UHGV virus genome: UHGV-0332375 | From: a virus | Reading direction: 5' to 3' (one strand) | Length of the DNA stretch: 22,040 nucleotides | Shown: in pieces, positions 929-21,794 of the stretch | Numbering within the stretch: the stretch's first letter is position 1 | How the letters are laid out: each line of letters begins with the position of its first letter | Made by a program: the position numbers and the translations under genes | Notes under the pieces: model-generated | The model's database searches: none | Seen by the model: the letters and a program-made list of their open reading frames with translations, nothing else | What the model was told of the DNA's origin: nothing

Positions 929-3751
929 ATGGCCCGCATCCCGGAAGCAGAGTTGCAGCACCTGAAAGCCGCCGTCTCCTTAGTCGCCGTGGTTCAGGCG
1001 CAGGGGCGACAACTGGTTAAGAAAGGGAAGGACTTCACCACGCTGTGTCCGTTCCATGACGAGAAAACGCCGTCCTGTGTGATCTCGCCCGAGAAAAACC
1101 TGTATCACTGCTTCGGCTGTAACGCAGGCGGATCGGTGCTGAACTGGGTGATGCAGACGGAAAAACTCAGCCTGCGTAAGGCAGCGGAACGTCTGAAAGC
1201 GGAGCTGGGCGACAATCCCGCCGTGGTGCCGCTGGTCACCAGGGATGAGCCGGAAATCTTCGCGGACGATGAAGCGGGCCGCCAGAAGCTGCTGGGCCGC
1301 GTGGTGGAGTTCTACCATCACACGCTGCTGAACGCGCCGGAAGCGGTGGCGTACCTGGAAAAGCGCCGTCTTAACCATCCTGAACTGGTCGCTGCCTTCA
1401 AACTCGGCTTCGCCAACCGTACCCTGCCTTACCGCCTGCCCGCCGTTAAATCACGGGCGGGCGAGAAGATCCGCGCCCGGCTTAAGGGTGTGGGTGTGCT
1501 GCGCGAGTCCGGGCATGAACACTTCACCGGATCGCTGGTTGTGCCGGTGATGGATCTGAACGGGCAGATCCGCGAGATGTACGGGCGCAAGATCACCGAC
1601 AGGTTGCGCAGCGGTACGGCGTTACACCTGTACCTGCCCGGTGCTCACGGCGGCGTGTGGAACGAGCAGGCGCTGATCGGGTCATCCGTGGTTATCCTGT
1701 GCGAATCGCTGATCGACGCCATGTCGTTCTGGGTCGCCGGAGTCCGTAACGTCACGGCGGCTTACGGGGTGAACGGCTTCACCGGTGAGATGCGGGCCGC
1801 ACTGCTGGCACACGGCGTTAAGCAGGTGCTGATCGCCTACGACAACGATCCGGCGGGCAATGAGGCAGCGGTGAAACTGGCTTCTTCCTTAGCCGCTGAC
1901 GGGATCGCCACGTTCCGCGTACTGTTCCCGGCGGGCATGGATGCGAACGGTTATCTGTGCCAGGTGGCAGAGCCGGAACAGGCGTTCAGTGTGTTGCTGG
2001 ACGGCGCGGTGCCCATGAGTGACCTGGCTGACGTGGCGAGTATCGCGCCGCAGGCCAGCGCGGAGCCTGCACACCTCACTTCGTTAGCCGCTGATGTTGC
2101 CGCGCTTCCGGCAGTTAGTGCGCCTGCGCCGGGCGTCAGCGTGGAAACCCTGGCTGATGGCGAACTGATGGTAGCCTTACCGGGCGAACGCTGGACAATC
2201 CGGGGCGTAAGCCGCAAAACCAACGCGGCGGCGATGAAGGTTAACGCGCAGGTGCTGGACACGGAAAGCGGCGTGGTGTTCGCCGATGCGGTGGATATGA
2301 TGAGCGCCCGCAGTCGCGGCGGTTATGCGCGGGCCGCAGCGGCAGAGCTTGGCCTGGCAGAAGGCGATCTGCGTCGCTCGCTGGGTAAGGTGCTGCTGGC
2401 GCTGGAGCACTGGCAGGCCGCACCGGAGCCCGCGAATGCCGCCCCGGAGATGACGCCGGAAGATCGGGAGGCAGCGCTTGAGTTGTTGCGCTCGCCGGAT
2501 CTTGCATCACGCATCGCGGCAGACATGGCGGCGTGTGGTGTGGTGGGTGAGTCCACCAACCTGACGGCGGCGTATCTGGCGGCGGTGTCGCGTAAGCTGG
2601 ACAGGCCGCTGGCGGTGCTGATCCAGTCATCGAGCGCGGCGGGCAAATCCTCGCTGATGGATGCGGTGCTCAACCTGATCCCGCCGGAAGAACGCTTACA
2701 GTACAGCGCCATGACCGGGCAGAGCCTGTTCTACCTCGGTGAAACCAACCTGCAACACAAGATCCTCGCCATCGCGGAAGAAGAAGGTGTGCGCCAGGCG
2801 GCGTATGCGCTCAAGCTGTTGCAGTCGGACGGCGAGTTAACGATCGCGTCAACGGGTAAGGACGACGCCAGCGGTAACCTGGTCACGAAACAGTACACGG
2901 TAAAAGGCCCGGTGATGCTGATGCTGACCACCACCGCCATCGACGTTGACGAGGAGTTACTCAACCGTTGCCTGGTGCTGACGGTGAACGAGTCGCGGGA
3001 GCAGACGGAAGCGATCCATGCGGCGCAGCGTTACGCGCAGACGCTGGAAGGACTGCTGGCGGCTAACGAAAAAAGTTACATCACTCAGCTTCACCAGAAC
3101 GCGCAGCGGCTGTTACGTCCGCTCAACGTGGTGAACCCGTTCGCGTCACAGCTCACGTTCATGAGCGACAAAACCCGCACCCGGCGCGACCACATGAAAT
3201 ACCTGACGCTGATCCAGACGATCGCCCTGCTGCACCAGTATCAGCGGGAGATCAAACGTGTGGAGCATCGCGGGCAGGTGGTGGAGTACATCGAGGTGAC
3301 GCGGGAAGACATCGCGCTGGCGAACCGCCTGGCACATGAAATACTCGGGCGCACCCTGGACGAAATGCCGCCGCAGACCAGAAAGCTGTTGCTGCTGATC
3401 CAGACAATGGTCGGTGAACTGGCAGCGGCGCAGCACTGCAAACCCGGCGAGGTACGCTTCACGCGCCGGGAGATCCGCGACTTCACGCAGTGGAGCGACA
3501 ACCAGCTTAAAGTCCACTGTATGCGGCTGGCGGAAATGGAATACCTGCTGATCCACGGCGGCAGCCGGGGTCACCTGCTGCAATACGAGTTGCTGTGGGA
3601 CGGCAGCGGCGACGGCTCGCACCTGTGCGGCCTGATCGAACCGGAGGACAGCCCGGTGTATGACTCCGGCAAGTTGGGGCAGAACGCGGACAGGTTGCCC
3701 TTAAGTTGCCCACATGTTGGGGCTAAGTTGGGGCTAAGTTGGGGGCGGTAA
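929..3751 (+). CDS. DNA primase, DnaG-like (CHC2 zinc finger, TOPRIM) fused to a large C-terminal domain with a P-loop-like motif
   Basis: 940-aa ORF. N-terminus CPFHDEKTPSC…YHCFGCNAGGS matches the DnaG zinc-binding domain (E. coli DnaG CCPFHNEKTPSF…YHCFGCGAHG); TOPRIM-like ILCESLIDAMS and AYDNDPAGNEAA; Walker-A-like SSSAAGKSS in the C-terminal half. The last ~30 codons overlap an iteron-like repeat array, so the exact C-terminus is uncertain. Confidence 0.85.
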   Translation: MARIPEAELQHLKAAVSLVAVVQAQGRQLVKKGKDFTTLCPFHDEKTPSCVISPEKNLYHCFGCNAGGSVLNWVMQTEKLSLRKAAERLKAELGDNPAVVPLVTRDEPEIFADDEAGRQKLLGRVVEFYHHTLLNAPEAVAYLEKRRLNHPELVAAFKLGFANRTLPYRLPAVKSRAGEKIRARLKGVGVLRESGHEHFTGSLVVPVMDLNGQIREMYGRKITDRLRSGTALHLYLPGAHGGVWNEQALIGSSVVILCESLIDAMSFWVAGVRNVTAAYGVNGFTGEMRAALLAHGVKQVLIAYDNDPAGNEAAVKLASSLAADGIATFRVLFPAGMDANGYLCQVAEPEQAFSVLLDGAVPMSDLADVASIAPQASAEPAHLTSLAADVAALPAVSAPAPGVSVETLADGELMVALPGERWTIRGVSRKTNAAAMKVNAQVLDTESGVVFADAVDMMSARSRGGYARAAAAELGLAEGDLRRSLGKVLLALEHWQAAPEPANAAPEMTPEDREAALELLRSPDLASRIAADMAACGVVGESTNLTAAYLAAVSRKLDRPLAVLIQSSSAAGKSSLMDAVLNLIPPEERLQYSAMTGQSLFYLGETNLQHKILAIAEEEGVRQAAYALKLLQSDGELTIASTGKDDASGNLVTKQYTVKGPVMLMLTTTAIDVDEELLNRCLVLTVNESREQTEAIHAAQRYAQTLEGLLAANEKSYITQLHQNAQRLLRPLNVVNPFASQLTFMSDKTRTRRDHMKYLTLIQTIALLHQYQREIKRVEHRGQVVEYIEVTREDIALANRLAHEILGRTLDEMPPQTRKLLLLIQTMVGELAAAQHCKPGEVRFTRREIRDFTQWSDNQLKVHCMRLAEMEYLLIHGGSRGHLLQYELLWDGSGDGSHLCGLIEPEDSPVYDSGKLGQNADRLPLSCPHVGAKLGLSWGR

Positions 3752-3803
3752 AACCGCCTGTAAGCCGCGCCAGTACTGGCACTGATGCGCCGCAAGTTGG
3801 AGC
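3671..3803. repeat. Iteron-like array of AAGTTGGGGC-type repeats (putative replication origin of the primase-bearing element)
   Basis: Copies at 3671-3680, 3692-3700 (AGGTTGCCC), 3703-3711, 3714-3723, 3725-3734, 3736-3746 and 3793-3803; three are in exact 11-bp tandem register (3714-3746). Read by eye from the sequence. Confidence 0.5.
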
Positions 3804-3903
3804 AGATGAAAAAACACTGTTCCCGACAGCCAGGAAAACATCACATCGTAACAGTAATACGCCGGAAAGCCGCCCGACACCCCATGACACGGCTCCGACA
3901 GCT

Positions 3904-3985
3904 CTGTAAGCCGCTCCGTGTCTGTTGTTGCTAACCATTCGCATGTATAAACAAACAGTTCATTTTTTACAAAAAACGCGCTATA
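3904..3985. repeat. Left copy of an imperfect ~85-bp direct repeat (CTGTAAGCCGC … ATGTATAAACAAACAG … ACAAAAAACGCGCT)
   Basis: Aligns by eye with 6306-6385: identical 11-mer CTGTAAGCCGC, 15/16 match over ATGTATAA(A/G)CAAACAG, similar T-run/ACAAAA/CGCT tail. A third partial copy of the 11-mer is at 3758-3768. Marks the GC-rich to AT-rich transition. Confidence 0.6.
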
Positions 3986-4126
3986 TACATCAATAGGTTG
4001 GAAGATGGTTTCTCCCCATCGATTATGAGTGTTAAAGCATTTTTATGACAATATGGTCATATTTTTGACCTAAGCTTATTTAGATGGTAGGATACATAAC
4101 CGTGATAAAGTAAATGGGCTGTCATT

Positions 4127-5266
4127 ATGATTTTAAATTTTGGTGCGAAAAATTTCTTCAGCTTTAAGGAAGGATTTGATATTTCATTTGAGCTTGGTAA
4201 TACTTGCCCAAAAGAAATTTCAAATGGGAAAGGCGTAACGAATATCCTTTGTATCAAAGGGGCTAATGGTTCAGGTAAAACGAATATACTAAAGGCACTA
4301 AGTTTTTTAACTAGTTTTATCTCTAATTCTTTTGATCTTAAACCAAATGCATATTTGCAGTTTGATCCATATTTTAATAGTAAATCTGAATCTGATTTCT
4401 ATATAACATTTGTATTAGATAATGTTATTTACAGATATGAAGCGTCAATGACTGACGTTGAGGTTAAACGAGAAGCTCTTTATAGAAAAAGTAAACGAGA
4501 AACTAAAGTTATTGAACGTATCAACGATGCAGTTGTGTTCACAATTAAAGAGTTTGATGAATTAAAAAGTATTAAAATGCGAAAAAATGTATCCCTTTTT
4601 AGCATGGCAATGCAATATGATGTTGATTGTGTTAGAGCAATTCATGAAAGTTTTACTAGGGTTATATCAAACGTCAGATATTCAGGTTTATTGACAGAAG
4701 TGCACGAATTAGAATATTTAAACGAATTTTATCATAATAACCCAGATGTATTCGATTTTTGTAAAAAAATTATAATGAAATTCGACCCCTCTATTCATGA
4801 TATTTATATAGCTAAAAATATTAATGATGACGGGAAAGTTACTTACAGGCCTTGGTTTGAGTTTGAGTTTGATGGTGAAACTGATATTTTAAGTTTTAAC
4901 CTGCAATCAAGTGGAACAAAATCATTATATAAGCAGTTAGGAAGTTATAAAGCTGTCCTGGCATTAGGTGGAACGCTTGTACTTGATGAGTTTGACATAA
5001 ATCTTCATCCTCATATACTTCCACATTTATTAGGTATTTTTATTGATGAGGAGCAAAACCCATATAATGCTCAGTTAATATTTACAACTCATAATACTGA
5101 GATTCTGGATTTTTTAGGAAAACATCGAACATATTTAGTCAACAAAAATAAGACTGAAAGTTATTGTTATCGACTTGATGAAATCCCTAGCGATATTTTA
5201 AGGAATGATCGCCCCATAACACCAGCCTATAATCAAGGTAAGATTGGTGGAGTTCCAAATTTATGA
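4127..5266 (+). CDS. ABC/AAA_21-family ATPase (abortive-infection / defence-type ATPase)
   Basis: 379 aa; Walker A GANGSGKTNILKA near residue 45, Walker B LVLDEFDINLHP, TTHN motif near the C-terminus; N-terminal MILNFGAKNFFSFKE typical of AAA_15/AAA_21 ATPases; strongly AT-rich codon usage; candidate promoter TTGACC-N17-TAGGAT about 4065-4093. Confidence 0.8.
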   Translation: MILNFGAKNFFSFKEGFDISFELGNTCPKEISNGKGVTNILCIKGANGSGKTNILKALSFLTSFISNSFDLKPNAYLQFDPYFNSKSESDFYITFVLDNVIYRYEASMTDVEVKREALYRKSKRETKVIERINDAVVFTIKEFDELKSIKMRKNVSLFSMAMQYDVDCVRAIHESFTRVISNVRYSGLLTEVHELEYLNEFYHNNPDVFDFCKKIIMKFDPSIHDIYIAKNINDDGKVTYRPWFEFEFDGETDILSFNLQSSGTKSLYKQLGSYKAVLALGGTLVLDEFDINLHPHILPHLLGIFIDEEQNPYNAQLIFTTHNTEILDFLGKHRTYLVNKNKTESYCYRLDEIPSDILRNDRPITPAYNQGKIGGVPNL

Positions 5267-5766
5267 GCAGAAAGTTTGGAAACTCCAATGCTCAAAAATT
5301 TCTAAAGGGATTTGAGGGGTTAGCAAGTCTTGACTCTGCAGAGTGTAATTTGGCTAGGAGATGTAAATTTAATTTCTCTTATTTTATAAGTAACCAAAAA
5401 GCTTGTGGTAAATTGTCGGATTGGGATAAAGATACAATATGTGTTTTTTTTGACAAGTTAATTGATTACTCTTCGAAATCGTTAAGTGATTTACAAATGA
5501 TCGGTTTGGGAAAGAATCGAAAAAAATTACTTTCTATTTATGATTCTTTCCCCAAAAATAGTTTGTTTGAACAACCTAAAAACATTCCTCATCAGGCTCG
5601 GTGGGGACGAATTAGATTAGATCAGAATAAAAGACTGATTGGGTTTGTTATTCCTGATGATTATCATGGACAAAGACATGAAGGCACTGGAATGTATTAT
5701 GATAAAAATACATTTTATGTTGTTTTTATTGATAATAACCATGGTTTTTATCTTCTTAATAAATAG
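5263..5766 (+). CDS. Hypothetical 167-aa protein, translationally coupled partner of the AAA_21 ATPase
   Basis: Start ATG overlaps the ATPase stop (ATGA at 5263-5266); same AT-rich composition; no motif I can assign to a known effector family (no HNH, TOPRIM, TM segments). Confidence 0.65.
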   Translation: MSRKFGNSNAQKFLKGFEGLASLDSAECNLARRCKFNFSYFISNQKACGKLSDWDKDTICVFFDKLIDYSSKSLSDLQMIGLGKNRKKLLSIYDSFPKNSLFEQPKNIPHQARWGRIRLDQNKRLIGFVIPDDYHGQRHEGTGMYYDKNTFYVVFIDNNHGFYLLNK

Positions 5767-5952
5767 CATTATCACTTCGGTTATCTATATGGGATATATA
5801 GGTGACCGAATTTTTAAGAAAAATGTTTTTAGTTGTAAAAACACATTGCGATATTTATTTCAGCATGTGGAACTGTAAGTATCTCGCATAATCGAAGCAT
5901 TCACATTTAGAGATCTTCTGGCATATTCATTCTGCCAACGAAGGAGATCGTT

Positions 5953-6295
5953 ATGCGTAAAGCCCATTTTACTGAGCATCAGATCATCGCTGTGATTAAG
6001 TCGGTTGAAGCCGGACGAACTGTCAAGGATGTTTGCCGCGAGACCGGTTTCTCTGAAGCGACCTACTACAATTGGAAACCTAAATACGGTGGTATGGAAG
6101 CCTTTGATATTAAAAAGATAAAGGATTTTGAGGACGAGAACAGGCGTCTCAAACAGATGTTTGCTGACATATCAGCCTTGAGAACAGGGCATTGAGACGT
6201 TATCGGAAAAAGCTTTGAAACCAGTCTTTAAGCGTGAGCTGGTCACTCATCTGATAACGACGTTCGGGCTTAGTATCCGTCAGGCCTGCCCCGGA
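5953..6295 (+). mobile_element. Truncated IS3-family insertion sequence remnant (orfA plus start of orfB)
   Basis: ORF 5953-6195 has the HTH_Tnp_1 pattern (FTEHQIIAVIKSVEAGRTVKDVCRETGFSEATYYNWKPKYGGME, similar to IS407-group OrfA); a shifted frame after an A-rich slippery-like stretch (GGAAAAAG ~6205) reads …LKPVFKRELVTHLITTFGLSIRQAC…, typical of an OrfB N-terminus, then breaks off about 6295 where repeat copy C begins. Higher GC than the flanking cargo. Confidence 0.6.
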
Positions 6296-6305
6296 CTTTA
6301 ATTTG

Positions 6306-6385
6306 CTGTAAGCCGCGTGATTCGTGCCCTGACACCCCAAATATATGTATAAGCAAACAGATCTTTTATAACAAAACCGCTCTTT
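6306..6385. repeat. Right copy of the imperfect ~85-bp direct repeat (CTGTAAGCCGC … ATGTATAAGCAAACAG … ACAAAACCGCTC)
   Basis: See 3904-3985; abuts the truncated IS remnant. Confidence 0.6.
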
Positions 6386-6428
6386 ACGCTTCAGGACTTA
6401 TAATATCGTGATTCCCCACATGACATCA

Positions 6429-7427
6429 TCAAGGCGTCGTTGCTTGAGTTGGATTCAGTTCAGAAACATTTGCAGCTTCTGCTTGCTGGACTATAGCTGT
6501 ACGGCGTTTCCGCTTTTTCTTCGGTTTTGGGCTAGTCATCTCTTTAATCCCCAGCATTTCCATGACTTCTGGCTGAGGTGGATAGCAAATACCTATGTCA
6601 GCAGGAGGTGTTGAGTGTCGATGTTTTTCAACTAACGATTTTTCATTATTCCAACGTTTGCAGAGGAAAATAATTCCTTCGAAGTAACGTTCATCTCTTT
6701 TCTGTGCCTCGAGAAGAATGAAAAATGCTCTTCTTTCTAGCCCTTCTAAAAATCCACAAAAGCATTCTCTGAGAAGTTTCTCGTCAAGATCATTGGCCTT
6801 AATTCCTTGAGCTAAAAACTCAAAGAAATTAAGAAGGTACACCAACCCGTTAATCCCTTTCACAACTTCATCTGGGACTTTTGAGTTTTTGAATTTTGGA
6901 TGGTCCGGGTCATCTCTCCAAACACATAGCTCTTTTGGAACATGGCGATTACCTCTCCATAAGTGCGTGAAATTACGCAAATGCGTTTGGTATTCAGTAC
7001 ATGTCCTAGTGCTAAGAACAACATTTAAAGTATGTTTTCTTCGATCACTTGCAGCGGAGGTGATGAATTGGATCCACCACCCCATACCAGCGATTGAACC
7101 GGCAACAATGATTGAAAGAGCTGTTTGGTAGGCATCATTATAGCGAAGTACGTAATATGCCAGCAGGAAAAGTACCCAAACCACACCTCCGAAAAGAGGT
7201 AGTAGTGGGTTTGTATCTGGAAATTTGTTACTGATTTTGTAGACGCTATATAGTGTTGTAAATGTTGCAAATGTAATCATTAACCCAGCATCGAACACTG
7301 CGTAAAACCAAGATGCAGTCTGTACTGCGTTTAAATTAAGTAAAATTCTCGTAATTATGAGACTGATCAAGATGCCAACCAGGACACCAAGCAGTGTTTT
7401 AGTTTTACTTTTTATCCATCGGTACAT
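6429..7427 (-). CDS. Hypothetical multi-pass membrane protein with C-terminal soluble domain and basic tail
   Basis: 332 aa; about four hydrophobic segments in the first ~120 residues (LLGVLVGILISLIITRILL, LMITFATFTTLYSVY, LFGGVVWVLFLLAYYVL, IIVAGSIAGMGWWIQFI); C-terminal KPKKKRKRR tract; AT-rich; lies just outside the prophage int-proximal end. Confidence 0.65.
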   Translation of the reverse strand: MYRWIKSKTKTLLGVLVGILISLIITRILLNLNAVQTASWFYAVFDAGLMITFATFTTLYSVYKISNKFPDTNPLLPLFGGVVWVLFLLAYYVLRYNDAYQTALSIIVAGSIAGMGWWIQFITSAASDRRKHTLNVVLSTRTCTEYQTHLRNFTHLWRGNRHVPKELCVWRDDPDHPKFKNSKVPDEVVKGINGLVYLLNFFEFLAQGIKANDLDEKLLRECFCGFLEGLERRAFFILLEAQKRDERYFEGIIFLCKRWNNEKSLVEKHRHSTPPADIGICYPPQPEVMEMLGIKEMTSPKPKKKRKRRTAIVQQAEAANVSELNPTQATTP

Positions 7428-7448
7428 TCTGAAAACCTTTTTGACGAT

Positions 7449-7475
7449 GAAAAAAACTCCTCAAAATGAGGAGTT
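7449..7475 (-). terminator. Rho-independent terminator between the prophage int-proximal end and the cargo island
   Basis: Perfect 9-bp stem AACTCCTCA / TGAGGAGTT with AAA loop (7455-7475) preceded by an A-run on the plus strand (U-run for leftward transcripts); position analogous to lambda tI/sib downstream of int. Confidence 0.55.
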
Positions 7476-7808
7476 TAGTTCAATGCATGTTAAGACTTAG
7501 CCTTCCCCGTAACCGATAGCGAAGTTTTTCATATAAGCCTCTCCTTTTGTACCTACTGTGTGGGTTAGAACTTCAGTTTGTTGTGAAATCTCTTGTTGAC
7601 TGAATAGTATCAAGAGCTGTGTGCGCTTGACAATAGGTTAGTACAGATTCAGAAAAACTTAAAACAAGAGCTAATTTCTTCAAAAAATGTATATTTATCA
7701 ATATATTATTTTGAGATAAAATTTCCATATCAAAGTAATAGTTCTTTTTAGGTATGTTGACAGGGCTAATTTTTAGACTATTAACATGGCATTTATATAT
7801 CATGAGCT

Positions 7809-8993
7809 TTATCCTGTACGGATTTCTCCATGCGGTACCACTACCCAGTTTGTATGATTTTTAGTGTATATTTTAGTCGATTTTGCATCGCTATGTGCCA
7901 TTCTTCCTTGTGGATCAATACCTTGTTTATCAAATAAGTGAGCAGCCAAAGCCCTTATCTCATGAAATGTAGGCCTTTCTTCCATTGCTAAGTGATTGCA
8001 CAGTCCGAGTTTGTCACGTACAGCAGAGAATGAGCGGCTTATGTAGTCCGGGGCCACTTGAGTAGGGTGCGAAACCTCTTTGCTACGTTTTACATTCCGC
8101 TTTGGAATTCTGTGGACAACGTAAGGACTGGCTACATTATCCCGACTGTTATCAATGATGCGTTTTAGTTCATCACCGATAGGGATTGCAACATGTGACG
8201 CCTCCTTTTTCTGTACCTTTTGCCGATGAATATATAGCATTCCGTATATTCCATTTTGTTGTTGCTCGAACCAGATACATCCACATATGCCGTCTTTAGG
8301 TTCGCGAATTGAGTAACGGATCCGCGATACTTCTAACCGTGCATGTGTCGTTTGTAAGGCTAAGTCCATTGCAGTTCTTAACCATGGTGCCGCGGCGCGG
8401 CGTATAGCCATGAAATGCTCGAATGATAGGCGTTGTCTTTTCTTCTCATCAGTCCTACGTTTTTTTTTCCTCGTTGCGGGGTTATCAAGCATTAGTGATT
8501 CGTCGACCGCATATGAGAACAACTTTTTAAGGAAGCCAACTTTTCTGTTCTGCACATTTGCGGATGAATTGTCATGATATTTGTTGATATAGGCGTTAAC
8601 GTGTTCAAGTTCGATATCGCATGCCGGAATATTTAAGAAAAAATCTTTTACGCGTAGAGCGTCATTTTTCCAGTCATCTAAGGTGCTCTGGGAAGGACGT
8701 TCGTCTTCGACAATTCGGGCCATTATGTGATCAACATGTTCAGCAAATGGTTTTGCTTCTCCGGTAACCCCGCCAGATTCTCTAATAAGATTATCCACTG
8801 ATGGGTATAATTCTGGTCGCATCCTCAGGTTGTACTCTCTGGCGATTGCAACGGCTATTGTCCGATCCTTACCTATATTTTTCTTTTTTCCGGTAATAAG
8901 TGTGAATTTATAAACACCTCGATCTTTATCAAAAACCAGATAATCAGGAAGATGTCTGTATTCTTTTTTACGTGGCCTTGCCGCCATGGTCAT
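7809..8993 (-). CDS. int: Tyrosine recombinase (phage integrase, lambda Int family)
   Basis: 394 aa; C-terminal catalytic region with PTFHEIRALAAHLF … GRMAHSDAKSTKIYTKNH; N-terminal basic arm-binding-like region; overlaps the xis stop. Confidence 0.9.
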   Translation of the reverse strand: MTMAARPRKKEYRHLPDYLVFDKDRGVYKFTLITGKKKNIGKDRTIAVAIAREYNLRMRPELYPSVDNLIRESGGVTGEAKPFAEHVDHIMARIVEDERPSQSTLDDWKNDALRVKDFFLNIPACDIELEHVNAYINKYHDNSSANVQNRKVGFLKKLFSYAVDESLMLDNPATRKKKRRTDEKKRQRLSFEHFMAIRRAAAPWLRTAMDLALQTTHARLEVSRIRYSIREPKDGICGCIWFEQQQNGIYGMLYIHRQKVQKKEASHVAIPIGDELKRIIDNSRDNVASPYVVHRIPKRNVKRSKEVSHPTQVAPDYISRSFSAVRDKLGLCNHLAMEERPTFHEIRALAAHLFDKQGIDPQGRMAHSDAKSTKIYTKNHTNWVVVPHGEIRTG

Positions 8994-9476: not shown

Positions 9477-9835
9477 TTCTTAGTCTCCGGTGCTTTCGGC
9501 ATTACTGCCCAGTGAGTGATATTGACGTTTTCAAGGTCCCCGACCTGAAATGTCCACTGCCATTCTCCAGTTTCTTTTTGCCCCCATGTGTACCAGAGAG
9601 AACGCCAGCCAATCAGCCAGCCTTCTCCATTAGCATCAAATAACAGAACACTTTCATTTGCTGGCGGTAGTTCAGCTGACACTGGTATTACTTTGTTTTC
9701 CAGTGCTGCACATTTAGCTTCAAGCGTATCGAATTTACGTACCAGGTATTCAGCATCCGTTTCATTCACTTTCAGATCTCGCGGTACACATTTCCCGCGA
9801 AGAAACCCTTCCATTTCGAAAAGATTCATGCGCAT
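9473..9835 (-). CDS. Hypothetical prophage protein (YfdS-like by size and position)
   Basis: 120-aa ORF overlapping neighbours by 4 and 10 bp; C-terminal ITHWAVMP motif. Confidence 0.55.
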   Translation of the reverse strand: MRMNLFEMEGFLRGKCVPRDLKVNETDAEYLVRKFDTLEAKCAALENKVIPVSAELPPANESVLLFDANGEGWLIGWRSLWYTWGQKETGEWQWTFQVGDLENVNITHWAVMPKAPETKK

Positions 9836-10362
9836 TTGCGTAACTCCGATAACTCGTTGAAGCGTTCTATAAACATCCCATAGGCATGGCCTGGCGACAG
9901 TGGAATAACTTTGAACATCTCTGTTGCCGGGATACCTTCCAGTACAGGCCAGAAAGAGCCATCATCAAGCCCGAGATCGCGGCGTTCGGTTGCCAGCATG
10001 ATGAGATCGGCATATTTCACAGGCGTGCTCATAACCGTGGGTAACCCGTATTTCTCACGGATTACGGCGTCTATTTTTTCTTCCATCCGTTTATAGTCAG
10101 GAAGAAGGCGTTTCAGCGGCGCGGGGATGTCCTGGCAATACGCTTCTGTTGCATCATGCATTAACGCTTCAAAAGCAAATTCCTGCGGCACCAGCTGGCT
10201 GCAAAGCACCGCATGTTGGGCGACACTGTAGAAGTGTGAAAGATGACCGGCAAAGCGACAGATATTTGAAAGGGAAACCGCGATATCGTTAATCACGATG
10301 TCGTCTTTATTTATCCTGTCATAATAAAAATGCTTCCCGGAAAAAGTTTTAATAAATGACAT
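9826..10362 (-). CDS. HD-domain phosphohydrolase (YfdR-like 5'-deoxynucleotidase)
   Basis: His…HD motif (SVAQHAVLCSQL … ALMHDATEAY); start set to the ATG at 10362 with GGAGAA SD, giving 178 aa, the size I recall for E. coli CPS-53 YfdR. Confidence 0.7.
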   Translation of the reverse strand: MSFIKTFSGKHFYYDRINKDDIVINDIAVSLSNICRFAGHLSHFYSVAQHAVLCSQLVPQEFAFEALMHDATEAYCQDIPAPLKRLLPDYKRMEEKIDAVIREKYGLPTVMSTPVKYADLIMLATERRDLGLDDGSFWPVLEGIPATEMFKVIPLSPGHAYGMFIERFNELSELRKCA

Positions 10363-15822: not shown

Positions 15823-16148
15823 TGACGACGTTAACTCAGTGTCAGCAGCAGGTGCTGGATATGCTGATTTCTTACCAGCAAGAACGTGGCTTTCCGCCAA
15901 CCAATCAGGAGGTGGCAACCATGCTGGGATACCGTTCAGTGAATGCAGCGGTGGAGCATCTTCGCGCACTGGAGAAAAAAGGCGTCATCACGATAAAGCG
16001 TGGTGTGGCCCGGGGGATCACGCTTCATACCGCGGTGAAGGACGACGACAGCGAGGCGGTCGGGATTATCCGCTCACTGCTTGCCGGTGAGGAAAACGCA
16101 AGGCTGCGTGCAACTCACTGGTTACATGAGAGAGGCCTGAAAGTATGA
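15822..16148 (+). CDS. LexA N-terminal DNA-binding-domain protein (no peptidase domain)
   Basis: TLTQCQQQVLDMLISYQQERGFPPTNQEVATMLGYRSVNAAVEHLRALEKKGVITIKRGVARGITL parallels LexA residues 1-70 ([55 protein letters not shown]…); ATG at 15822 overlaps the upstream stop (TAATG); 108 aa. Confidence 0.7.
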   Translation: MTTLTQCQQQVLDMLISYQQERGFPPTNQEVATMLGYRSVNAAVEHLRALEKKGVITIKRGVARGITLHTAVKDDDSEAVGIIRSLLAGEENARLRATHWLHERGLKV

Positions 16149-16535
16149 AGCTGATCCTGCCTTTCCCGCCCAGCGTGAACACGTACTGGCGACACCCCAA
16201 CAAAGGGGCGTTTGCTGGTAAGAGCCTGATAAGCGCGGCGGGGCGAAAATTCCAGAGCGCGGCGTGCGCAGCAATAGTTGAGCAGTTACGTCGTCTGCCG
16301 AAACCAACGTCGGCACCTGCTTCAGTGGAGATCGTGTTGTTTCCTTCCGGATAACCGGAGCCGCGATCTGGACAACTATAACAAGGCGCTGTTTGACGCC
16401 CTGACCCACGCGGGTGTGTGGGAAGACGACAGTCAGGTGAAAAGAATGCTGGTGGAGTGGGGACCGGTTATCCCGGAAGGGAAGGTCGAGATCACTATCA
16501 GTAAGTACGAGAAAACGGCGGGTGCAGCCGCCTGA
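16145..16535 (+). pseudogene. rusA: Holliday-junction resolvase RusA, interrupted by a frameshift
   Basis: ORF 16145-16354 aligns with the RusA N-terminal half; the C-terminal half (DNRSRDLDNYNKALFDALTHAGVWEDD… vs RusA [27 protein letters not shown]…) continues in another frame to 16535; the frames meet at CCTTCC (~16340-16350), consistent with a 1-bp indel. Confidence 0.7.
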
Positions 16536-18374: not shown

Positions 18375-19127
18375 ATGAACCTTGAAGCCTTACCGAAATA
18401 TTACTCCCCGAAATCTCCAAAATTGAGCGATGACGCACCGGCGACAGGCTCTGGTGGTTTAACAATTACGGATGTAATGGCTGCGCAGGGGATGGTGCAG
18501 TCTAAAGCACCGCTTGGGTTTGCCTTATTCCTGGCAAAAGTTGGTGTTCAGGATCCTCAGTTTGCGATTGAAGGTCTGCTCAATTACGCGATGGCACTGG
18601 ATAACCCGACATTGAACAAATTGAGTGAAGAAACCCGGTTACAGATCATCCCTTACCTTGTGAATTTTGCCTTTGCTGATTATTCCAGGTCTGCGGCAAG
18701 TAAGGCTCGCTGTGAGCATTGTGCTGGTACTGGATTTCATAATGTATTGCGCGAAGTGGTGAAACACTCCAGAAGCGGGGAATCTGTTATCAAGGAAGAG
18801 TGGGTGAAGGAACTGTGTCAGCATTGTCATGGTAAGGGAGAAGTCAGCACAGCGTGCAGAGGGTGTAAGGGTAAAGGTATTGTCCTGGATGAAAAAAGAA
18901 CCCGGCTTCATGGCACGCCTGTTTATAAGGTTTGTGGGCGTTGCAATGGAAACCGGTTTAGCCGTTTACCAACCACACTGGCGCGGCTTCATGTCCAGAA
19001 GCTGGTACCAGACCTGACGGATTATCAGTGGTACAAAGGATATGCAGATGTCATTGATAAACTGGTTACAAAGTGCTGGCAGGAGGAATCTTACGCTGAA
19101 GCACAATTGAGAAAGGTGACAAGATAA
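18375..19127 (+). CDS. Q: Late-gene antiterminator Q
   Basis: 250 aa; multiple CxxC/HxxH zinc motifs (CEHCAGTG, CQHCHGKG, CRGCKGKG, CGRCNG); position after the rusA/KilA/DUF968 region and before the lysis cassette; GGAGAA SD. Confidence 0.7.
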   Translation: MNLEALPKYYSPKSPKLSDDAPATGSGGLTITDVMAAQGMVQSKAPLGFALFLAKVGVQDPQFAIEGLLNYAMALDNPTLNKLSEETRLQIIPYLVNFAFADYSRSAASKARCEHCAGTGFHNVLREVVKHSRSGESVIKEEWVKELCQHCHGKGEVSTACRGCKGKGIVLDEKRTRLHGTPVYKVCGRCNGNRFSRLPTTLARLHVQKLVPDLTDYQWYKGYADVIDKLVTKCWQEESYAEAQLRKVTR

Positions 19128-19329
19128 GTGATCTTCGCCGAAAATGGTGACATGATGCTTGCAATTTTCAAAAAACATGGATAAGATTTTCTCAACGATG
19201 GGCTTTATGTATCTGCTGTTGATAACCTTCAAGAACTCGCCATTGAGCGGGTTTTTTATTGTGTAAAAACAGAATGACGGTATTAATTAGTAATATAATT
19301 ATTCGACCATACAACTAGGGGTCGAAAAA

Positions 19330-20115
19330 ATGTATGTTTTTGAGTTAATCAAGCCAGGCAGTAATCTTAAGTTTGAAAACAGAGAGTTAGAATGGACGTT
19401 TAATAACTTATTATCCCATTTAGAAACTGCATTTTATGATGCTAATGTAGCATTAAATTTATTCGAACAGGAAAGAACTAAGAATAACAGTAAATTCGAT
19501 AATATTTCTCAGACATGGCAAGCTGATGTACAGAAACGACAAGCACTGGAAATGCTGGTTCGTAAAGAGTTTGGTTATCAACCTTATGAATATTCAGAAC
19601 AGGTTTTTTCAGAGGTCGAGCTACGTCTAAAAAGAGAAAAATGGAATAACGGTGAATATCCGTTGGCTCATCAACACAGATTGATCTTCTTACATGCAAA
19701 ATCATTTCTCTACGCTTTGGATGCTATTGATAAATTTTTAAAGGTAATTTCAAAAGAAAATGGCGCGCCAGAGAACATTAAAAAATTGCATGAACAGCTT
19801 TCTAAAGACTTTCCGGATTTAAGAAAGGTAAGGAATTCAGCTCAACACATGGAAGACAGAGTTCGTGGGCTTGGTGCAGAGAAAGAACCAAAGCCAATAA
19901 AACTCAAACCTGTAAATAATATTCATGTTGTTGCACCTCAGGGGGCATTGATGTTAAATAACTTATTCGGAACTAAATTTGGGTGCACTATGGCTGATGG
20001 CTATTATGGTGAAGTAGATATTTCGACAGAGTCTTTGGCAAAGTTGCAAAATTTAATCCAAAAAGTTTTTAATTCCTTCAGTTGGGAAGGACCAAAGCAA
20101 CACCTTCCCCGATAA
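19330..20115 (+). CDS. Hypothetical AT-rich moron protein with R-x4-H (HEPN-like) motif
   Basis: 261-aa ORF with markedly lower GC than flanking phage genes; motif RNSAQH in DLRKVRNSAQHMEDR; occupies the Q-to-S position where lambdoid phages carry morons; followed by a strong terminator. Confidence 0.7.
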   Translation: MYVFELIKPGSNLKFENRELEWTFNNLLSHLETAFYDANVALNLFEQERTKNNSKFDNISQTWQADVQKRQALEMLVRKEFGYQPYEYSEQVFSEVELRLKREKWNNGEYPLAHQHRLIFLHAKSFLYALDAIDKFLKVISKENGAPENIKKLHEQLSKDFPDLRKVRNSAQHMEDRVRGLGAEKEPKPIKLKPVNNIHVVAPQGALMLNNLFGTKFGCTMADGYYGEVDISTESLAKLQNLIQKVFNSFSWEGPKQHLPR

Positions 20116-20132
20116 CATTTTCTTTTTTATTG

Positions 20133-20163
20133 AAAGCCGCCAAATAATTGGCGGCTTTTTTAT
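20133..20163 (+). terminator. Rho-independent terminator after the moron gene
   Basis: Perfect 10-bp stem AAGCCGCCAA / TTGGCGGCTT with a 4-nt loop, followed by TTTTTTTATTT. Confidence 0.8.
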
Positions 20164-20204
20164 TTCACAGTACCCGCAAATATCGCGAGGTGAGAGATGA
20201 CGAA

Positions 20205-20531
20205 ATGCCTCATAACCCAAATACCTGGCTGGAGTTGGTCCAGAGCTGGTGGCGTGGAGACACACCGCTGGGCGCAGTGATTATGTCGATTGTTATGGCT
20301 GGTTTACGTATCGCCTATTTTGGCGGTGGTGGCGGCTGGAAGCGAAAAACACTCGAAATTCTACTCTGTGGCGCTCTGACGCTGACTTTTGCATCCGCTC
20401 TTGAGTATGTCGGATGGCCTAAATCACTATCTGTTGCCATTGGTGGTGGGGTGGGGCTGATCGGTGTCGATGCTATTCGTGGGGCTGCAATGCGAGTAAT
20501 CGGTAACAAATTTGGTGGCTCTAAGGAGTAA
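20205..20531 (+). CDS. Holin (three-TM class, S-like)
   Basis: 108 aa from the ATG at 20205 (GAGGTGAGAG SD upstream; the track start at 20148 lies inside the terminator); hydrophobic segments AVIMSIVMAGLRIAYF, LEILLCGALTLTFASAL, SVAIGGGVGLIGV; immediately upstream of the endolysin. Confidence 0.7.
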   Translation: MPHNPNTWLELVQSWWRGDTPLGAVIMSIVMAGLRIAYFGGGGGWKRKTLEILLCGALTLTFASALEYVGWPKSLSVAIGGGVGLIGVDAIRGAAMRVIGNKFGGSKE

Positions 20532-20534
20532 TTT

Positions 20535-21011
20535 ATGCAGGTACTAAATTCCCAGCGTAAAGCTTTCCTTGATATGGTGGCTTGGTCAGAAGGAACGGAT
20601 AACGGACGACAACCGACACGTAACCACGGTTATGACGTTATTGTCGGTGGTGAACTCTTCACTGATTACTCCGATCACCCTCGCAAACTTGTCACGCTAA
20701 ACCCGAAACTCAAGTCAACAGCCGCCGGACGTTATCAGCTTCTTTCACGCTGGTGGGATGCTTACCGTAAACAGCTTGGTTTGAAAGACTTCTCCCCCAA
20801 AAGCCAGGACGCAGTGGCATTGCAGCAGATTAAAGAGCGTGGCGCTTTACCGATGATTGATCGCGGTGATATTCGTCAGGCAATTGACCGTTGCAGCAAT
20901 ATCTGGGCTTCACTGCCGGGCGCTGGTTATGGTCAGTTCGAGCATAAGGCTGACAGCCTGATTGCAAAATTCAAGGAAGCAGGCGGAACTGTCAGAGAGA
21001 TTGAGGTATGA
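20535..21011 (+). CDS. R: Endolysin, lytic transglycosylase (lambda R)
   Basis: 158 aa, near-identical over long stretches to lambda R as recalled ([55 protein letters not shown]…); AAGGAG SD. Confidence 0.95.
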
Positions 21012-21469
21012 GCAGAGTAACCGCGATTATCTCCGCTCTGGTTATCTGCGTCATCGTCTGCCTGTCATGGGCTGTTAATCATTACCGCGATAACGCGATT
21101 ACCTACAAAGCCCAGCGCGACAAAAATGCCAGAGAACTGAAGCTGGCGAACTCGACAATTACTGACATGCAGGTGCGCCAGCGTGATGTTGCTGCGCTCG
21201 ATGCAAAATACACGAAGGAGTTAGCTGATGCGAAAGCTGAAAATGATGCTCTGCGTGATGATGTTGCCGCTGGTCGTCGTCGGTTGCACATCAAAGCAGT
21301 CTGTCAGTCAGTGCGTGAAGCCACCACCGCCTCCGGCATGGATAATGCAGCCTCCCCCCGACTGGCTGACACCGCTGAACGGGATTATTTCACTCTCAGA
21401 GAGAGGCTGATCACTATGCAAAAACAACTGGAAGGAACCCAGAAGTATATTAATGAGCAGTGCAGATAG
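21008..21469 (+). CDS. Rz: Spanin inner-membrane subunit Rz
   Basis: 153 aa; N-terminal TM segment ([18 protein letters not shown]), coiled-coil-like remainder; ATG overlaps the R stop; contains the embedded Rz1 frame. Confidence 0.9.
21228..21410 (+). CDS. Rz1: Spanin outer-membrane lipoprotein subunit Rz1 (embedded in Rz, +1 frame)
   Basis: 60 aa; lipobox LVVVGC, proline-rich [15 protein letters not shown]; essentially the lambda Rz1 sequence as recalled. Confidence 0.9.
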
Positions 21470-21500: not shown

Positions 21501-21794
21501 TTATTGTGAGCAATACACCCGCGCTTCCAGCGGAGTATAAATGCCTAAAGTAATAAAACCGAGCAATCCATTTACGAATGTTTGCTGGGTTTCTGTTTTA
21601 ACAACATTTTCTGCGCCGCCACAAATTTTGGCTGCATCAACAGTTTTCTTCTGTCCAATTCCCGAAACGAAGAAATGATGGGTGATGGTTTCCTTTGGTG
21701 TTACTGCTGTCGGTTTGTTTCCAACAGTAAACGTCTGTTGAGCACATCCTGTAATAAGCATAGCCAGAGCGGCAGAAAACAACATTTTTTTCAT
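21501..21794 (-). CDS. bor: Bor lipoprotein (serum-resistance, lysogenic conversion)
   Basis: 97 aa from MKKMLFSAALAMLITGCAQQTFTV…; essentially the lambda Bor sequence as recalled; lipobox ITGC (track ORF has a 16-codon upstream extension). Confidence 0.9.
   Translation of the reverse strand: MKKMLFSAALAMLITGCAQQTFTVGNKPTAVTPKETITHHFFVSGIGQKKTVDAAKICGGAENVVKTETQQTFVNGLLGFITLGIYTPLEARVYCSQ

What the first reader, a model, noticed from the sequence alone, without database searches (positions are those of the whole stretch)
19330..20163. AT-rich moron between Q and the holin encodes a protein with an R-x4-H (HEPN-like) motif: candidate single-gene abortive-infection nuclease
The Q-to-S interval is the classic moron slot of lambdoid phages (Stx toxins sit here). 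This 261-aa ORF has much lower GC than flanking genes, its own strong terminator (20133-20163), and the motif RNSAQH, which has the form of the HEPN RNase catalytic motif found in Abi-type proteins (AbiD/AbiF-like and others). It lies between Q and the lysis genes, so it is probably transcribed late with them; any expression in the lysogen would need its own promoter.
Basis: partly seen in the sequence, partly recalled or inferred. Interest (0 to 1): 0.7.

Follow-up and report, generated by a model that had tools for sequence, protein, structure and literature searches.

The report
Solo HEPN-like gene in Q–holin slot
An imported gene sitting between a prophage's late-gene switch and its lysis genes encodes a widespread, unnamed protein whose most conserved residues form the signature of HEPN-type RNA-cutting enzymes, which makes it a good but unproven candidate for a new one-gene anti-phage defence.

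Summary
ORF 19330-20115 (261 aa) lies between Q and the holin, has 36% GC against 50% in the flanks, and is followed by a strong hairpin terminator. Comparison with SfV, Ayreon and Tritos shows it is a swapped cassette (19258-20152) joined at the T-tracts of two terminators.

A bare R-x4-H is weak evidence (31% of shuffles have one). Across 144 diverse relatives, however, R168 and H173 are the two most conserved polar residues, position 169 is N or D in 143/144, and an upstream D131-x3-[K/R]135 is conserved. These are the published HEPN sequence signatures.

The gene always travels alone: on small plasmids, as single-ORF integron cassettes, on islands beside Abi genes, and directly after Q in enterobacterial prophages with several Q and lysis types.

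Best reading: a new HEPN-like solo nuclease, probably defensive. Its function is untested.

The parts
18375..19127 (+). Q antiterminator gene (left anchor of the slot)
   Evidence: PF03589 Antiterm E 4.8e-53 and phrog_127. 95% identical DNA in SfV, Ayreon and mEp460.
19231..19256 (+). tR'-type intrinsic terminator of the conserved Q-pR'-tR' module. Left recombination joint at 19257.
   Evidence: Terminator scan. Homology to SfV, Ayreon and Tritos ends at 19256/19257. Annotated as a terminator in SfV and Ayreon.
19258..20152 (+). The swapped cassette: 72-nt leader, ORF and cassette-specific terminator stem
   Evidence: blastn breakpoints against SfV are 19257 and 20153. SfV carries orf47 plus a DNA methyltransferase, with a different hairpin stem, in the same place. 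GC 0.36 against 0.50 in the flanks.
19294..19299 (+). Perfect -10-like hexamer TATAAT in the cassette leader, ending 30 nt before the ATG. Candidate own promoter with a weak -35.
   Evidence: Read directly from the sequence. A TATAAT ends the same 30 nt before the ATG in Citrobacter (L063, 65% aa identity) and a second E. coli lineage (L061, 51%). Not detected by the stricter consensus scan. Function not shown.
19330..20115 (+). 261-aa ORF, member of phrog_5322 (unknown function). Cytoplasmic helical bundle plus a beta-rich domain.
   Evidence: AF2 model pLDDT 89.5, pTM 0.82. No hydrophobic segment, maximum KD19 0.94. 980 clusters at 50% identity in the representative search.
19720..19734 (+). 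Codons for D131-A-I-D-K135, a conserved D-x3-[K/R] in helix 112-142. Candidate counterpart of the HEPN upstream E-x3-[K/R] motif.
   Evidence: D131 133/144; position 135 K95 + R32 of 144. HEPN criterion from PMC3710099.
19831..19863 (+). Codons for R168-N-S-A-Q-H173-M-E175-D176-R177-V, the putative catalytic motif R-[ND]-x3-H followed by a conserved [ED]-[DE]-R
   Evidence: R168 142/144, position 169 N111/D32, H173 142/144, E175 E128/D15, D176 D124/E14, R177 139/144. The motif lies at a helix break: H164-167, break, H171-178.
20132..20159 (+). Intrinsic terminator closing the cassette. The stem is cassette-specific and the T-tract is shared with SfV. Right joint at 20153.
   Evidence: Every enterobacterial homologue is followed by a comparable hairpin.
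20205..20531 (+). Holin S (right anchor of the slot), followed by endolysin 20535-21011 and Rz 21008-21469
   Evidence: PF05106 E 4.3e-25. RefSeq annotation in NZ_CP116480.

Best explanation
The ORF encodes a cytoplasmic, self-sufficient, HEPN-like (metal-independent) ribonuclease of a previously unnamed family. It is carried as a one-gene mobile cassette and most likely serves as a single-protein abortive-infection or defence module.

Proposed working (inferred):
- A helical core (about residues 87-180) presents R168/N169/H173, backed by D131/K135 and the E175-D176-R177 triad, at the distorted end of a helix.
- As in other HEPN enzymes, two such motifs would meet at a dimer interface to form the active site.
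- The conserved beta-rich module, built from the N-terminal hairpin (1-17) and residues about 181-261, would keep the enzyme inactive until a phage-derived trigger is sensed.
- RNA (tRNA or mRNA) cleavage would then arrest the cell.

Expression in this prophage (inferred): the gene is the first gene downstream of tR'. It should therefore be made at low level in the lysogen, from the leader's TATAAT promoter-like element or from tR' read-through, and at high level after Q antitermination.

Shown: the cassette anatomy, the motif conservation, the solo and mobile distribution, and the confident two-module model. Inferred: the HEPN fold, RNase chemistry, sensing, defence and the promoter.
For: Sequence signatures:
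- R168 and H173 are the two most conserved polar residues of 144 diverse members. Position 169 is N or D in 143/144. D131-x3-[K/R]135 is conserved. These are the HEPN signatures as defined in PMC3710099.
- The motif sits at a helix break after helices 112-142 and 149-167, as described for HEPN helix 3.
- The validated prophage HEPN nuclease Tha-1 has the near-identical motif R265NSIMH270 (PMC11087260).
- A divergent 204-aa Marinitoga virus member keeps only the core plus FPxLRxVRNSxxHxEDR (hhalign 97.4%).

Solo and mobile distribution:
- No conserved neighbour: 113 Pfam families among 118 neighbouring proteins.
- A single-ORF cassette in a Vibrio superintegron with 12 attC repeats. About a third of reference-genome loci have attC-like flanks.
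- Cargo of 4-12 kb plasmids.

Defence company in several loci: Abi_2 plus RelE, HEPN_AbiU2 and AAA_21+RloB, a SIR2-like gene, and a HEPN_AbiV cassette in the same array.

Precedent: solo HEPN proteins on prophages are proven abortive-infection systems (HepS, PMC13043305; Tha).
Against: - No sequence or profile link to any known HEPN family. Pfam hmmscan of 36 members at E<=10 found none. PADLOC and NCBIfam found none. PDB sequence profiles found none. hhalign against an Abi_2 profile gave probability 0.4%, and against single AbiU2 and AbiV sequences it was negative.
- Foldseek against PDB and BFVD gave nothing at E<=1e-3.
- The helix after the motif is short (171-178) and is followed by a beta-rich domain, which is not the canonical long helix 4.
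- The extended invariant H-x-[ED]-[DE]-R and the strongly conserved C-terminal module are unusual for HEPN Abi proteins and could indicate a different chemistry.
- Many reference-genome neighbours are housekeeping genes, so defence-island association is not general.
- No experiment exists, and no paper mentions the family.
Confidence: 0.45

Rival explanations
1. It is a late-phase phage factor. As the first gene of the Q-dependent late operon, it would work for the induced prophage itself, for example in host or competitor RNA shut-off, or in counter-defence against co-resident prophages, satellites or host systems. It would not protect the lysogen.
For: In every enterobacterial case examined the gene sits directly after Q and before the lysis cassette, even at 50% protein identity. 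The Q genes hit several Pfam Q models (PF03589, PF06323, PF06530, DUF1133-type) and there are three kinds of lysis cassette. This position guarantees strong late expression, as for stx genes. The Marinitoga virus homologue lies inside the tail module.
Against: The same family is common where there is no phage at all: integron cassettes, 4-12 kb plasmids, and solitary chromosomal insertions. No isolated phage genome in the 50,697-record collection carries a full-length copy. The Q-S slot is a general moron hotspot that also holds methyltransferases and Csp genes, so position alone need not imply a late function. The conserved leader TATAAT suggests Q-independent expression.
Confidence: 0.15
2. 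It is a selfish or stress-response toxin rather than an anti-phage system. It would be a HEPN-like RNase that stabilises the plasmid, integron array or prophage carrying it, or induces dormancy under stress, as Anantharaman et al. proposed for integron-cassette HEPN proteins.
For: It is frequent cargo of very small plasmids and integron arrays, next to RelE/HTH and HicB-type toxin-antitoxin modules. The dormancy hypothesis for integron HEPN cassettes is stated in PMC3710099.
Against: There is no conserved antitoxin-like neighbour. A constitutively toxic single-ORF cassette would be hard to maintain, and addiction by a lone protein has no obvious mechanism.
Confidence: 0.12
3. It is not a HEPN nuclease. 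It would be a two-module enzyme or binding protein of a new type, whose conserved R168/H173/E175/D176/R177, together with T220 and the G224 region, form a different active or ligand-binding site. The R-x4-H resemblance would be convergent or coincidental.
Against: The full set of HEPN sequence signatures is present, not just R and H: R, then N or D, x3, H at a helix end, plus the upstream acidic-x3-basic motif. HEPN families are notoriously undetectable by sequence between families.
Confidence: 0.2

Closest known systems
HepS (Gifsy-1 prophage, Salmonella; PMC13043305)
   Same: A single protein on a lambdoid prophage with a canonical R-x4-H motif and no partner gene. It is a proven abortive-infection anticodon nuclease, and its homologues are often prophage-borne.
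   Different: There is no detectable sequence similarity: no PDB chain at all matches my profiles. HepS is shorter (motif at R100-H105; the authors excluded proteins over 250 aa). [quoted passage not shown] It has no beta-rich C-terminal module described.
Tha-1/Tha-2 (S. aureus prophages; PMC11087260)
   Same: A prophage-encoded protein about 300 aa long, with a HEPN module and a nearly identical catalytic hexamer (RNSIMH against RNSAQH). It has a second module of unknown fold that probably senses a phage protein, and it faces the problem of self-activation on induction.
Integron-cassette HEPN family (PDB 3jrt, Vpc_cass2; PMC3710099 Table 1)
   Different: There is no sequence or profile similarity (3jrt was not retrieved at E<=10). 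3jrt is 166 aa and lacks both the long N-terminal helix and the beta-rich domain.
Abi_2 / AbiD-AbiF (PF07751)
   Same: Single-gene abortive-infection proteins with an h-R-N-x3-H motif (for example IRNVCAH in the Acinetobacter neighbour). One is encoded right next to my family's gene on Acinetobacter plasmids.
   Different: Membership was tested and not met. There was no Pfam hit in 36 members, and hhalign of the 144-sequence profile against a 47-sequence Abi_2 profile gave probability 0.4%.
Q-S slot morons of lambdoid phages (stx in Stx phages; orf47 plus DNA methyltransferase in SfV; cspB in Tritos)
   Same: Same slot, bounded by tR' and a terminator just before S. Foreign base composition, and absent from sister phages.
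   Different: The cargo is unrelated. In this case the same cargo family recurs in the slot across several Q and lysis-cassette types.

Membership tests
HEPN superfamily (criteria of Anantharaman et al. 2013, PMC3710099) | Conserved R-x4-6-H motif | tested here: met
   R168 142/144 and H173 142/144 in diverse representatives. These are the two most conserved polar columns.
HEPN superfamily (criteria of Anantharaman et al. 2013, PMC3710099) | Polar residue (N, D or H) immediately after the R | tested here: met
   Position 169 is N in 111 and D in 32 of 144.
HEPN superfamily (criteria of Anantharaman et al. 2013, PMC3710099) | Second conserved acidic residue upstream, typically E-x3-[K/R], in the helix before the motif helix and close to the motif in space | tested here: inconclusive
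   D131 (133/144) and [K/R]135 (127/144) lie in helix 112-142.
HEPN superfamily (criteria of Anantharaman et al. 2013, PMC3710099) | Motif at the often distorted C-terminal end of a core helix, leading into the loop to the last helix | tested here: met
   DSSP on the AF2 model gives H149-160, H164-167, a break at 168-170, then H171-178.
HEPN superfamily (criteria of Anantharaman et al. 2013, PMC3710099) | Four-helix up-down bundle specifically resembling solved HEPN domains | tested here: inconclusive
HEPN superfamily (criteria of Anantharaman et al. 2013, PMC3710099) | Profile-level homology to at least one recognised HEPN family | tested here: not met
   Negative results from Pfam (36 members, E<=10), PADLOC, NCBIfam, PDB sequence profiles, hhalign against an Abi_2 profile, and hhalign against AbiU2 and AbiV single sequences. 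Only one HEPN family could be tested profile-to-profile, and no HHpred database was available.
HEPN superfamily (criteria of Anantharaman et al. 2013, PMC3710099) | Metal-independent RNase activity dependent on R and H, with a composite site at a dimer interface | not testable with these tools
   Needs biochemistry or multimer modelling.
Abi_2 (AbiD/AbiF, PF07751) | Match to the family model or profile | tested here: not met
   No PF07751 hit in 36 members. hhalign A2 against A4 gave probability 0.4%, E 0.15.
HepS family (PMC13043305) | Sequence homology to HepS; standalone HEPN of 250 aa or less | tested here: not met
   No solved chain matches the family profile at E<=10. This covers HepS only if its structures are in the PDB copy searched. 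The protein is 261 aa with an extra domain, and its prophage location differs.
Lambdoid-phage moron | Extra gene absent from related phages that share both flanks | tested here: met
   SfV shares 18375-19257 (95%) and 20153-20947 (91%) but carries different cargo. Ayreon and Tritos share the left flank.
Lambdoid-phage moron | Deviant base composition and its own terminator | tested here: met
   GC 0.36 against 0.50. The hairpin stem at 20132-20152 is cassette-specific.
Lambdoid-phage moron | Own promoter active in the lysogen | tested here: inconclusive
   A perfect TATAAT at 19294-19299 ends 30 nt before the ATG, the same distance as in two divergent cassettes, but the -35 is poor. The consensus scan found no site here. 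There are no transcript data.
Integron gene cassette (for homologues, not the window copy) | Single ORF bounded by attC sites within an array | tested here: met
   In L016, 12 attC-type repeats are present and the homologue at 7001-7786 is bounded by copies at 6861-6982 and 7790-7911. By a heuristic, 13 of 35 loci have attC-like flanks.
Type II toxin-antitoxin toxin | Conserved adjacent antitoxin gene | tested here: not met
   113 Pfam families occur among the 118 nearest neighbours, none in more than 2 loci. The AbiU2 adjacency is not recurrent.

The most novel reading that the evidence does not exclude
The protein is not a conventional HEPN defence nuclease. It would be the founding member of a new two-module enzyme family whose recurrent placement as the first gene behind Q, across several unrelated Q and lysis-cassette types and down to 50% protein identity, reflects a function coupled to late transcription. 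One possibility is an RNA-cleaving factor switched on at induction to silence competing prophages, satellites or host responses. The integron and plasmid copies would then be the reservoir from which phages recruit it.
Probability: 0.15. Interest if true: 0.75.

Novelty: new variant of a known kind. Interest (0 to 1): 0.55.

Why it matters
If confirmed, this adds a large family to the short list of proteins that are a complete phage-defence system on their own (HepS, Tha, AbiD/F). The family has 980 clusters at 50% identity and spans Gamma-, Beta-, Alpha-, Delta- and Epsilonproteobacteria, and it is completely unannotated.

It would also show that the Q-holin junction of enterobacterial lambdoid prophages, best known for Shiga toxin genes, is a recurrent docking site for such systems. 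It would link that slot to integron cassettes and small plasmids as a shared gene pool.

The conserved second module offers a tractable case for asking how a solo nuclease senses infection, and how a prophage tolerates strong late expression of its own suicide enzyme.

The family is invisible to Pfam, NCBIfam, PADLOC and PHROG annotation, so a model for it would improve defence-system annotation.

Tried and rejected
- **Family libraries:** Pfam, NCBIfam and PADLOC scans of the protein found nothing relevant. A Pfam scan of 36 family members at E<=10 gave only scattered sub-threshold noise.
- **PDB sequences:** Searches with two family profiles and with the isolated core found no HEPN chain. 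The weak choline-kinase hit (4r77, E 0.05-0.47) aligns to the kinase catalytic loop, whose H-x-D residues are not present in my family, so I rejected it.
- **Fold searches:** Foldseek against PDB and BFVD found nothing significant. The AFDB libraries were not installed.
- **Profile comparisons:** hhalign against single AbiU2, Abi_2 and AbiV sequences, and against a purpose-built Abi_2 profile, were all negative.
- **Bxe_C0808:** I considered that the family might be the 'Bxe_C0808' HEPN family of PMC3710099 ('in operon with AbiU2'), because one Pseudomonas locus has AbiU2 immediately upstream. The supplement with the alignments is not held, the AbiU2 adjacency did not recur in 39 other loci, and no source name or locus tag points to it. 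This remains unresolved.
- **Bridging search:** Searching outward from the divergent Marinitoga member found only 3 proteins and no annotated bridge.
- **Partner gene:** I looked for a conserved partner or antitoxin and found none.
- **Literature:** Searches by accession and PHROG id returned zero papers.
- **Technical failures:** My first attC pattern was too strict, missed the positive control and was replaced.

Full report
**1. What is in the sequence**

It has a Shine-Dalgarno-like AGGGG 8 nt upstream of the ATG. It follows a Q antiterminator (18375-19127, PF03589, E 4.8e-53). It precedes a lambda-type holin (PF05106), an endolysin and Rz. Its GC is 0.36 against 0.50 in the flanks.

Two intrinsic-terminator-like hairpins flank it, at 19231-19256 and 20132-20159. 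The region is a prophage in E. coli. Identical DNA occurs in 22 of 5,426 complete E. coli genomes, always annotated 'hypothetical protein'. The exact protein is on 915 contigs of the large collection.

**2. It is a swapped cassette with precise joints**

Phages SfV, Ayreon, mEp460, Tritos and Stx2c phages share the Q gene and the 130 nt after it. That homology ends at 19256/19257, which is the end of the T-tract of the upstream hairpin. SfV and Ayreon annotate this hairpin as a terminator. It is therefore the tR' of the conserved Q-pR'-tR' module and not part of the insert.

Homology to SfV resumes at 20153, inside the T-tract of the downstream terminator. SfV carries orf47 plus a DNA methyltransferase there, closed by a different hairpin stem fused to the same T-tract. 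The exchangeable unit is thus 19258-20152: a 72-nt leader, the ORF and its own terminator stem.

Because the unit lies between tR' and S, Q-modified polymerase must transcribe it first among the late genes. This follows from the established lambda late-transcription model.

The leader has a perfect TATAAT (19294-19299) ending 30 nt before the ATG, with only a poor -35. A TATAAT ends the same 30 nt before the ATG in the Citrobacter (65% identity) and second E. coli (51% identity) cassettes. This suggests an autonomous promoter but does not show one.

**3. The protein family**

There is no Pfam, NCBIfam or PADLOC match. The only hit is phrog_5322, 'unknown function', over its full length (E 4.7e-140).

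Homologues are numerous and uniform in length (about 250-280 aa). One search found 375 clusters at 90% identity. The exhaustive representative search found 980 clusters at 50% identity, 444 of them at E<=1e-30. Hosts span Gamma-, Beta-, Alpha-, Delta- and Epsilonproteobacteria, with a remote plasmid copy in Deinococcus. Every source name is 'hypothetical' or 'uncharacterized', and no paper mentions the accession or the PHROG id.

**4. The motif**

RNSAQH is residues 168-173. In a single sequence this proves little. 31% of shuffles of this protein contain R-x4-H, 4.7% contain R[NDH]x3H, and there is a second, unconserved R-x4-H at residue 117.

Conservation is what counts. In 144 representatives that are 29-60% identical to the query:
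- R168 is present in 142/144.
- H173 is present in 142/144.
- Position 169 is N (111) or D (32).
- Position 175 is E or D in 143/144.
- Position 176 is D or E in 138/144.
- R177 is present in 139/144.

R168 and H173 rank 4th and 5th of all 261 columns and are the top two polar columns. Upstream, D131 (133/144) and [K/R]135 (127/144) form a D-x3-[K/R] motif.

Anantharaman et al. define the HEPN signature in these terms (PMC3710099):
- A conserved R-x4-6-H.
- A polar N, D or H after the R.
- An upstream acidic residue, typically in E-x3-[K/R], in the preceding core helix.
- The motif at the often distorted end of helix 3.

The validated prophage HEPN nuclease Tha-1 has the motif RNSIMH (PMC11087260).

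**5. Structure**

AlphaFold2 with the 36-sequence alignment gives a confident model (pLDDT 89.5, pTM 0.82). Its elements in order are:
- An N-terminal beta-hairpin.
- A long helix 18-81, less confident around residues 51-60.
- Helices 89-106, 112-142 and 149-160/164-167.
- A break at exactly R168-S170, then a short helix 171-178.
- A beta-rich segment 181-230, helix 233-248 and a final strand.

This is compatible with HEPN but does not single it out. Foldseek finds nothing significant in PDB or BFVD. The AFDB libraries were unavailable, and model coordinates cannot be read. I could therefore not check motif superposition or the spatial position of D131.

A 204-aa protein of two Marinitoga viruses matches residues 87-182 only, sharing FPxLRxVRNSxxHxEDR (hhalign 97.4%). 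Its alignment begins at the equivalent of about residue 57 of my protein. This shows that the three helices ending in the motif are the conserved unit. The first ~56 residues, including most of the long N-terminal helix, are dispensable. The C-terminal part of the Marinitoga protein shows no detectable similarity to mine.

**6. Homology tests that failed**

- None of 36 family members reaches any Pfam HEPN or Abi model even at E<=10.
- Profiles of 36 and 144 sequences, and the isolated core, hit no PDB sequence.
- hhalign against real AbiU2, Abi_2 and AbiV proteins taken from neighbouring genes is negative.
- A true profile-profile comparison with a 47-sequence Abi_2 alignment gives probability 0.4%.

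Abi_2 membership is therefore rejected. Membership of the HEPN superfamily is neither shown nor excluded, because inter-family HEPN similarity is typically only visible to HHpred-type searches against many families. I could not run such searches.

**7. Genomic company**

No neighbour is conserved. The 118 nearest ORFs in 33 reference-genome loci fall into 113 Pfam families, none present in more than two loci, and many are housekeeping genes. The gene is a solo unit and is found on four kinds of vehicle:

a) Enterobacterial lambdoid prophages. It always lies directly after Q and before the lysis genes, in E. coli (two lineages, 100% and 51% identity), Citrobacter (65%), Klebsiella (61%) and Enterobacter (50%). 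The Q proteins hit PF03589, PF06323, PF06530 and a DUF1133-type model. The lysis cassettes are built on holin_3_1, holin_2_3, or holin_8 plus holin_3_7 with GH19.

b) Integron cassettes. In V. parahaemolyticus the gene is one ORF between two of 12 attC repeats. An Aeromonas island copy has the same attC-like flanks. A heuristic finds attC-like palindromes starting 2 nt after the stop codon in roughly a third of reference loci.

c) Small plasmids of 4-12 kb in Acinetobacter, Psychrobacter, Proteus and Klebsiella.

d) Islands and solitary insertions.

Where neighbours are informative they are often defence or toxin genes:
- Abi_2 and RelE/HTH.
- HEPN_AbiU2 upstream and AAA_21+RloB downstream.
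- A SIR2-like gene.
- A HEPN_AbiV cassette in the same array.
- Sel1, SUKH and RelE.
- A HicB-type gene inserted in the same Q-S slot.

The ORF's GC equals the host's in Acinetobacter, Pseudomonas, Vibrio and Aeromonas. It is about 14 points too low in E. coli and Klebsiella, consistent with import from low-GC donors. No sequenced, isolated phage carries a full-length copy.

**8. Interpretation**

The best-supported reading (confidence about 0.45) is a new, HEPN-like, single-protein nuclease that acts as an abortive-infection or defence module. R168/N169/H173, with D131/K135 and E175-D176-R177, would be catalytic. The beta-rich module would be regulatory or sensing.

There is direct precedent for solo HEPN proteins on prophages being complete abortive-infection systems triggered by phage structural proteins: HepS (PMC13043305) and Tha (PMC11087260). 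My protein is not homologous to either by any test available. Its architecture and its prophage position also differ.

The rivals are a late-phase phage factor (0.15), a selfish or stress toxin (0.12), and a non-HEPN enzyme of a new type (0.20). The last is favoured by the complete absence of profile hits and by the unusually conserved acidic pair and C-terminal module.

**9. Verdict**

I class the novelty as a new variant of a known kind. The family is unannotated, has a distinct two-module architecture, and has a striking recurrent position at the head of the late operon. Interest is 0.55. It is a well-defined, cheaply testable candidate, not a surprise in principle.

Noticed in passing
window 3351-4990 (+) (L001 4222-5861): A 379-aa AAA ATPase matches the PADLOC models AbiLi (E 1.6e-64) and AriA (E 3.9e-33). 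A 167-aa ORF with no match follows it and overlaps it by 4 nt. This is probably a two-gene AbiL/PARIS-like defence system. It lies beside a 940-aa primase and a SymE toxin, on what looks like a satellite-like element next to the prophage integrase.
   Followed up: partly
window 6217-6343 (-): An Rfam hit to isrN, an Hfq-binding sRNA (61.7 bits against a gathering score of 44). It lies on the same strand as, and inside, the annotated DUF4760 gene at window 5653-6651.
   Followed up: no
window 19257 and 20153: Cargo exchange in the Q-S slot is joined exactly at the T-tracts of two intrinsic terminators. SfV's unrelated cargo ends in a different hairpin stem fused to the same T-tract. This suggests terminators act as the recombination joints of this hotspot.
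   Followed up: partly
window 21501-21794 (-): An Iss/Bor-type serum-survival lipoprotein gene lies on the opposite strand just after Rz, the classic lambda bor position.
   Followed up: no
window about 9519-10216 and about 16145-16535: Signs of prophage decay. An IS1 element interrupts yfdR, and the RusA gene is frameshifted in the identical RefSeq record.
   Followed up: no
L059:3411-4025 (Marinitoga phage MPV1): A truncated relative (204 aa) that keeps only the conserved core and motif sits between the tape-measure and tail genes of a Thermotogae virus. This is a very different host and a different genomic slot.
   Followed up: partly
L060:2733-3802 (A. baumannii plasmid pD1279779): On this 7.4-kb plasmid the homologue is preceded by a Sel1-repeat protein and a SUKH-1/SMI1 protein, a family of immunity proteins in polymorphic-toxin systems, plus a RelE toxin-antitoxin pair. 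PMC3710099 notes that AbiU2 also pairs with Sel1-repeat genes.
   Followed up: no
L063:6020-6653: In one Citrobacter prophage a HicB-like gene and a 60-aa ORF, on the opposite strand, are inserted between the homologue and the holin. The slot can therefore stack several accessory modules.
   Followed up: no
L007 and L016 flanks of the homologue: The Aeromonas island copy and the Vibrio superintegron copy share near-identical attC-like flanking sequences (GCGTTGCTCACACCTTAA... upstream, T(T/C)ATAACAA... downstream). This implies cassette transfer between an integron and an integrase/VapE island.
   Followed up: partly
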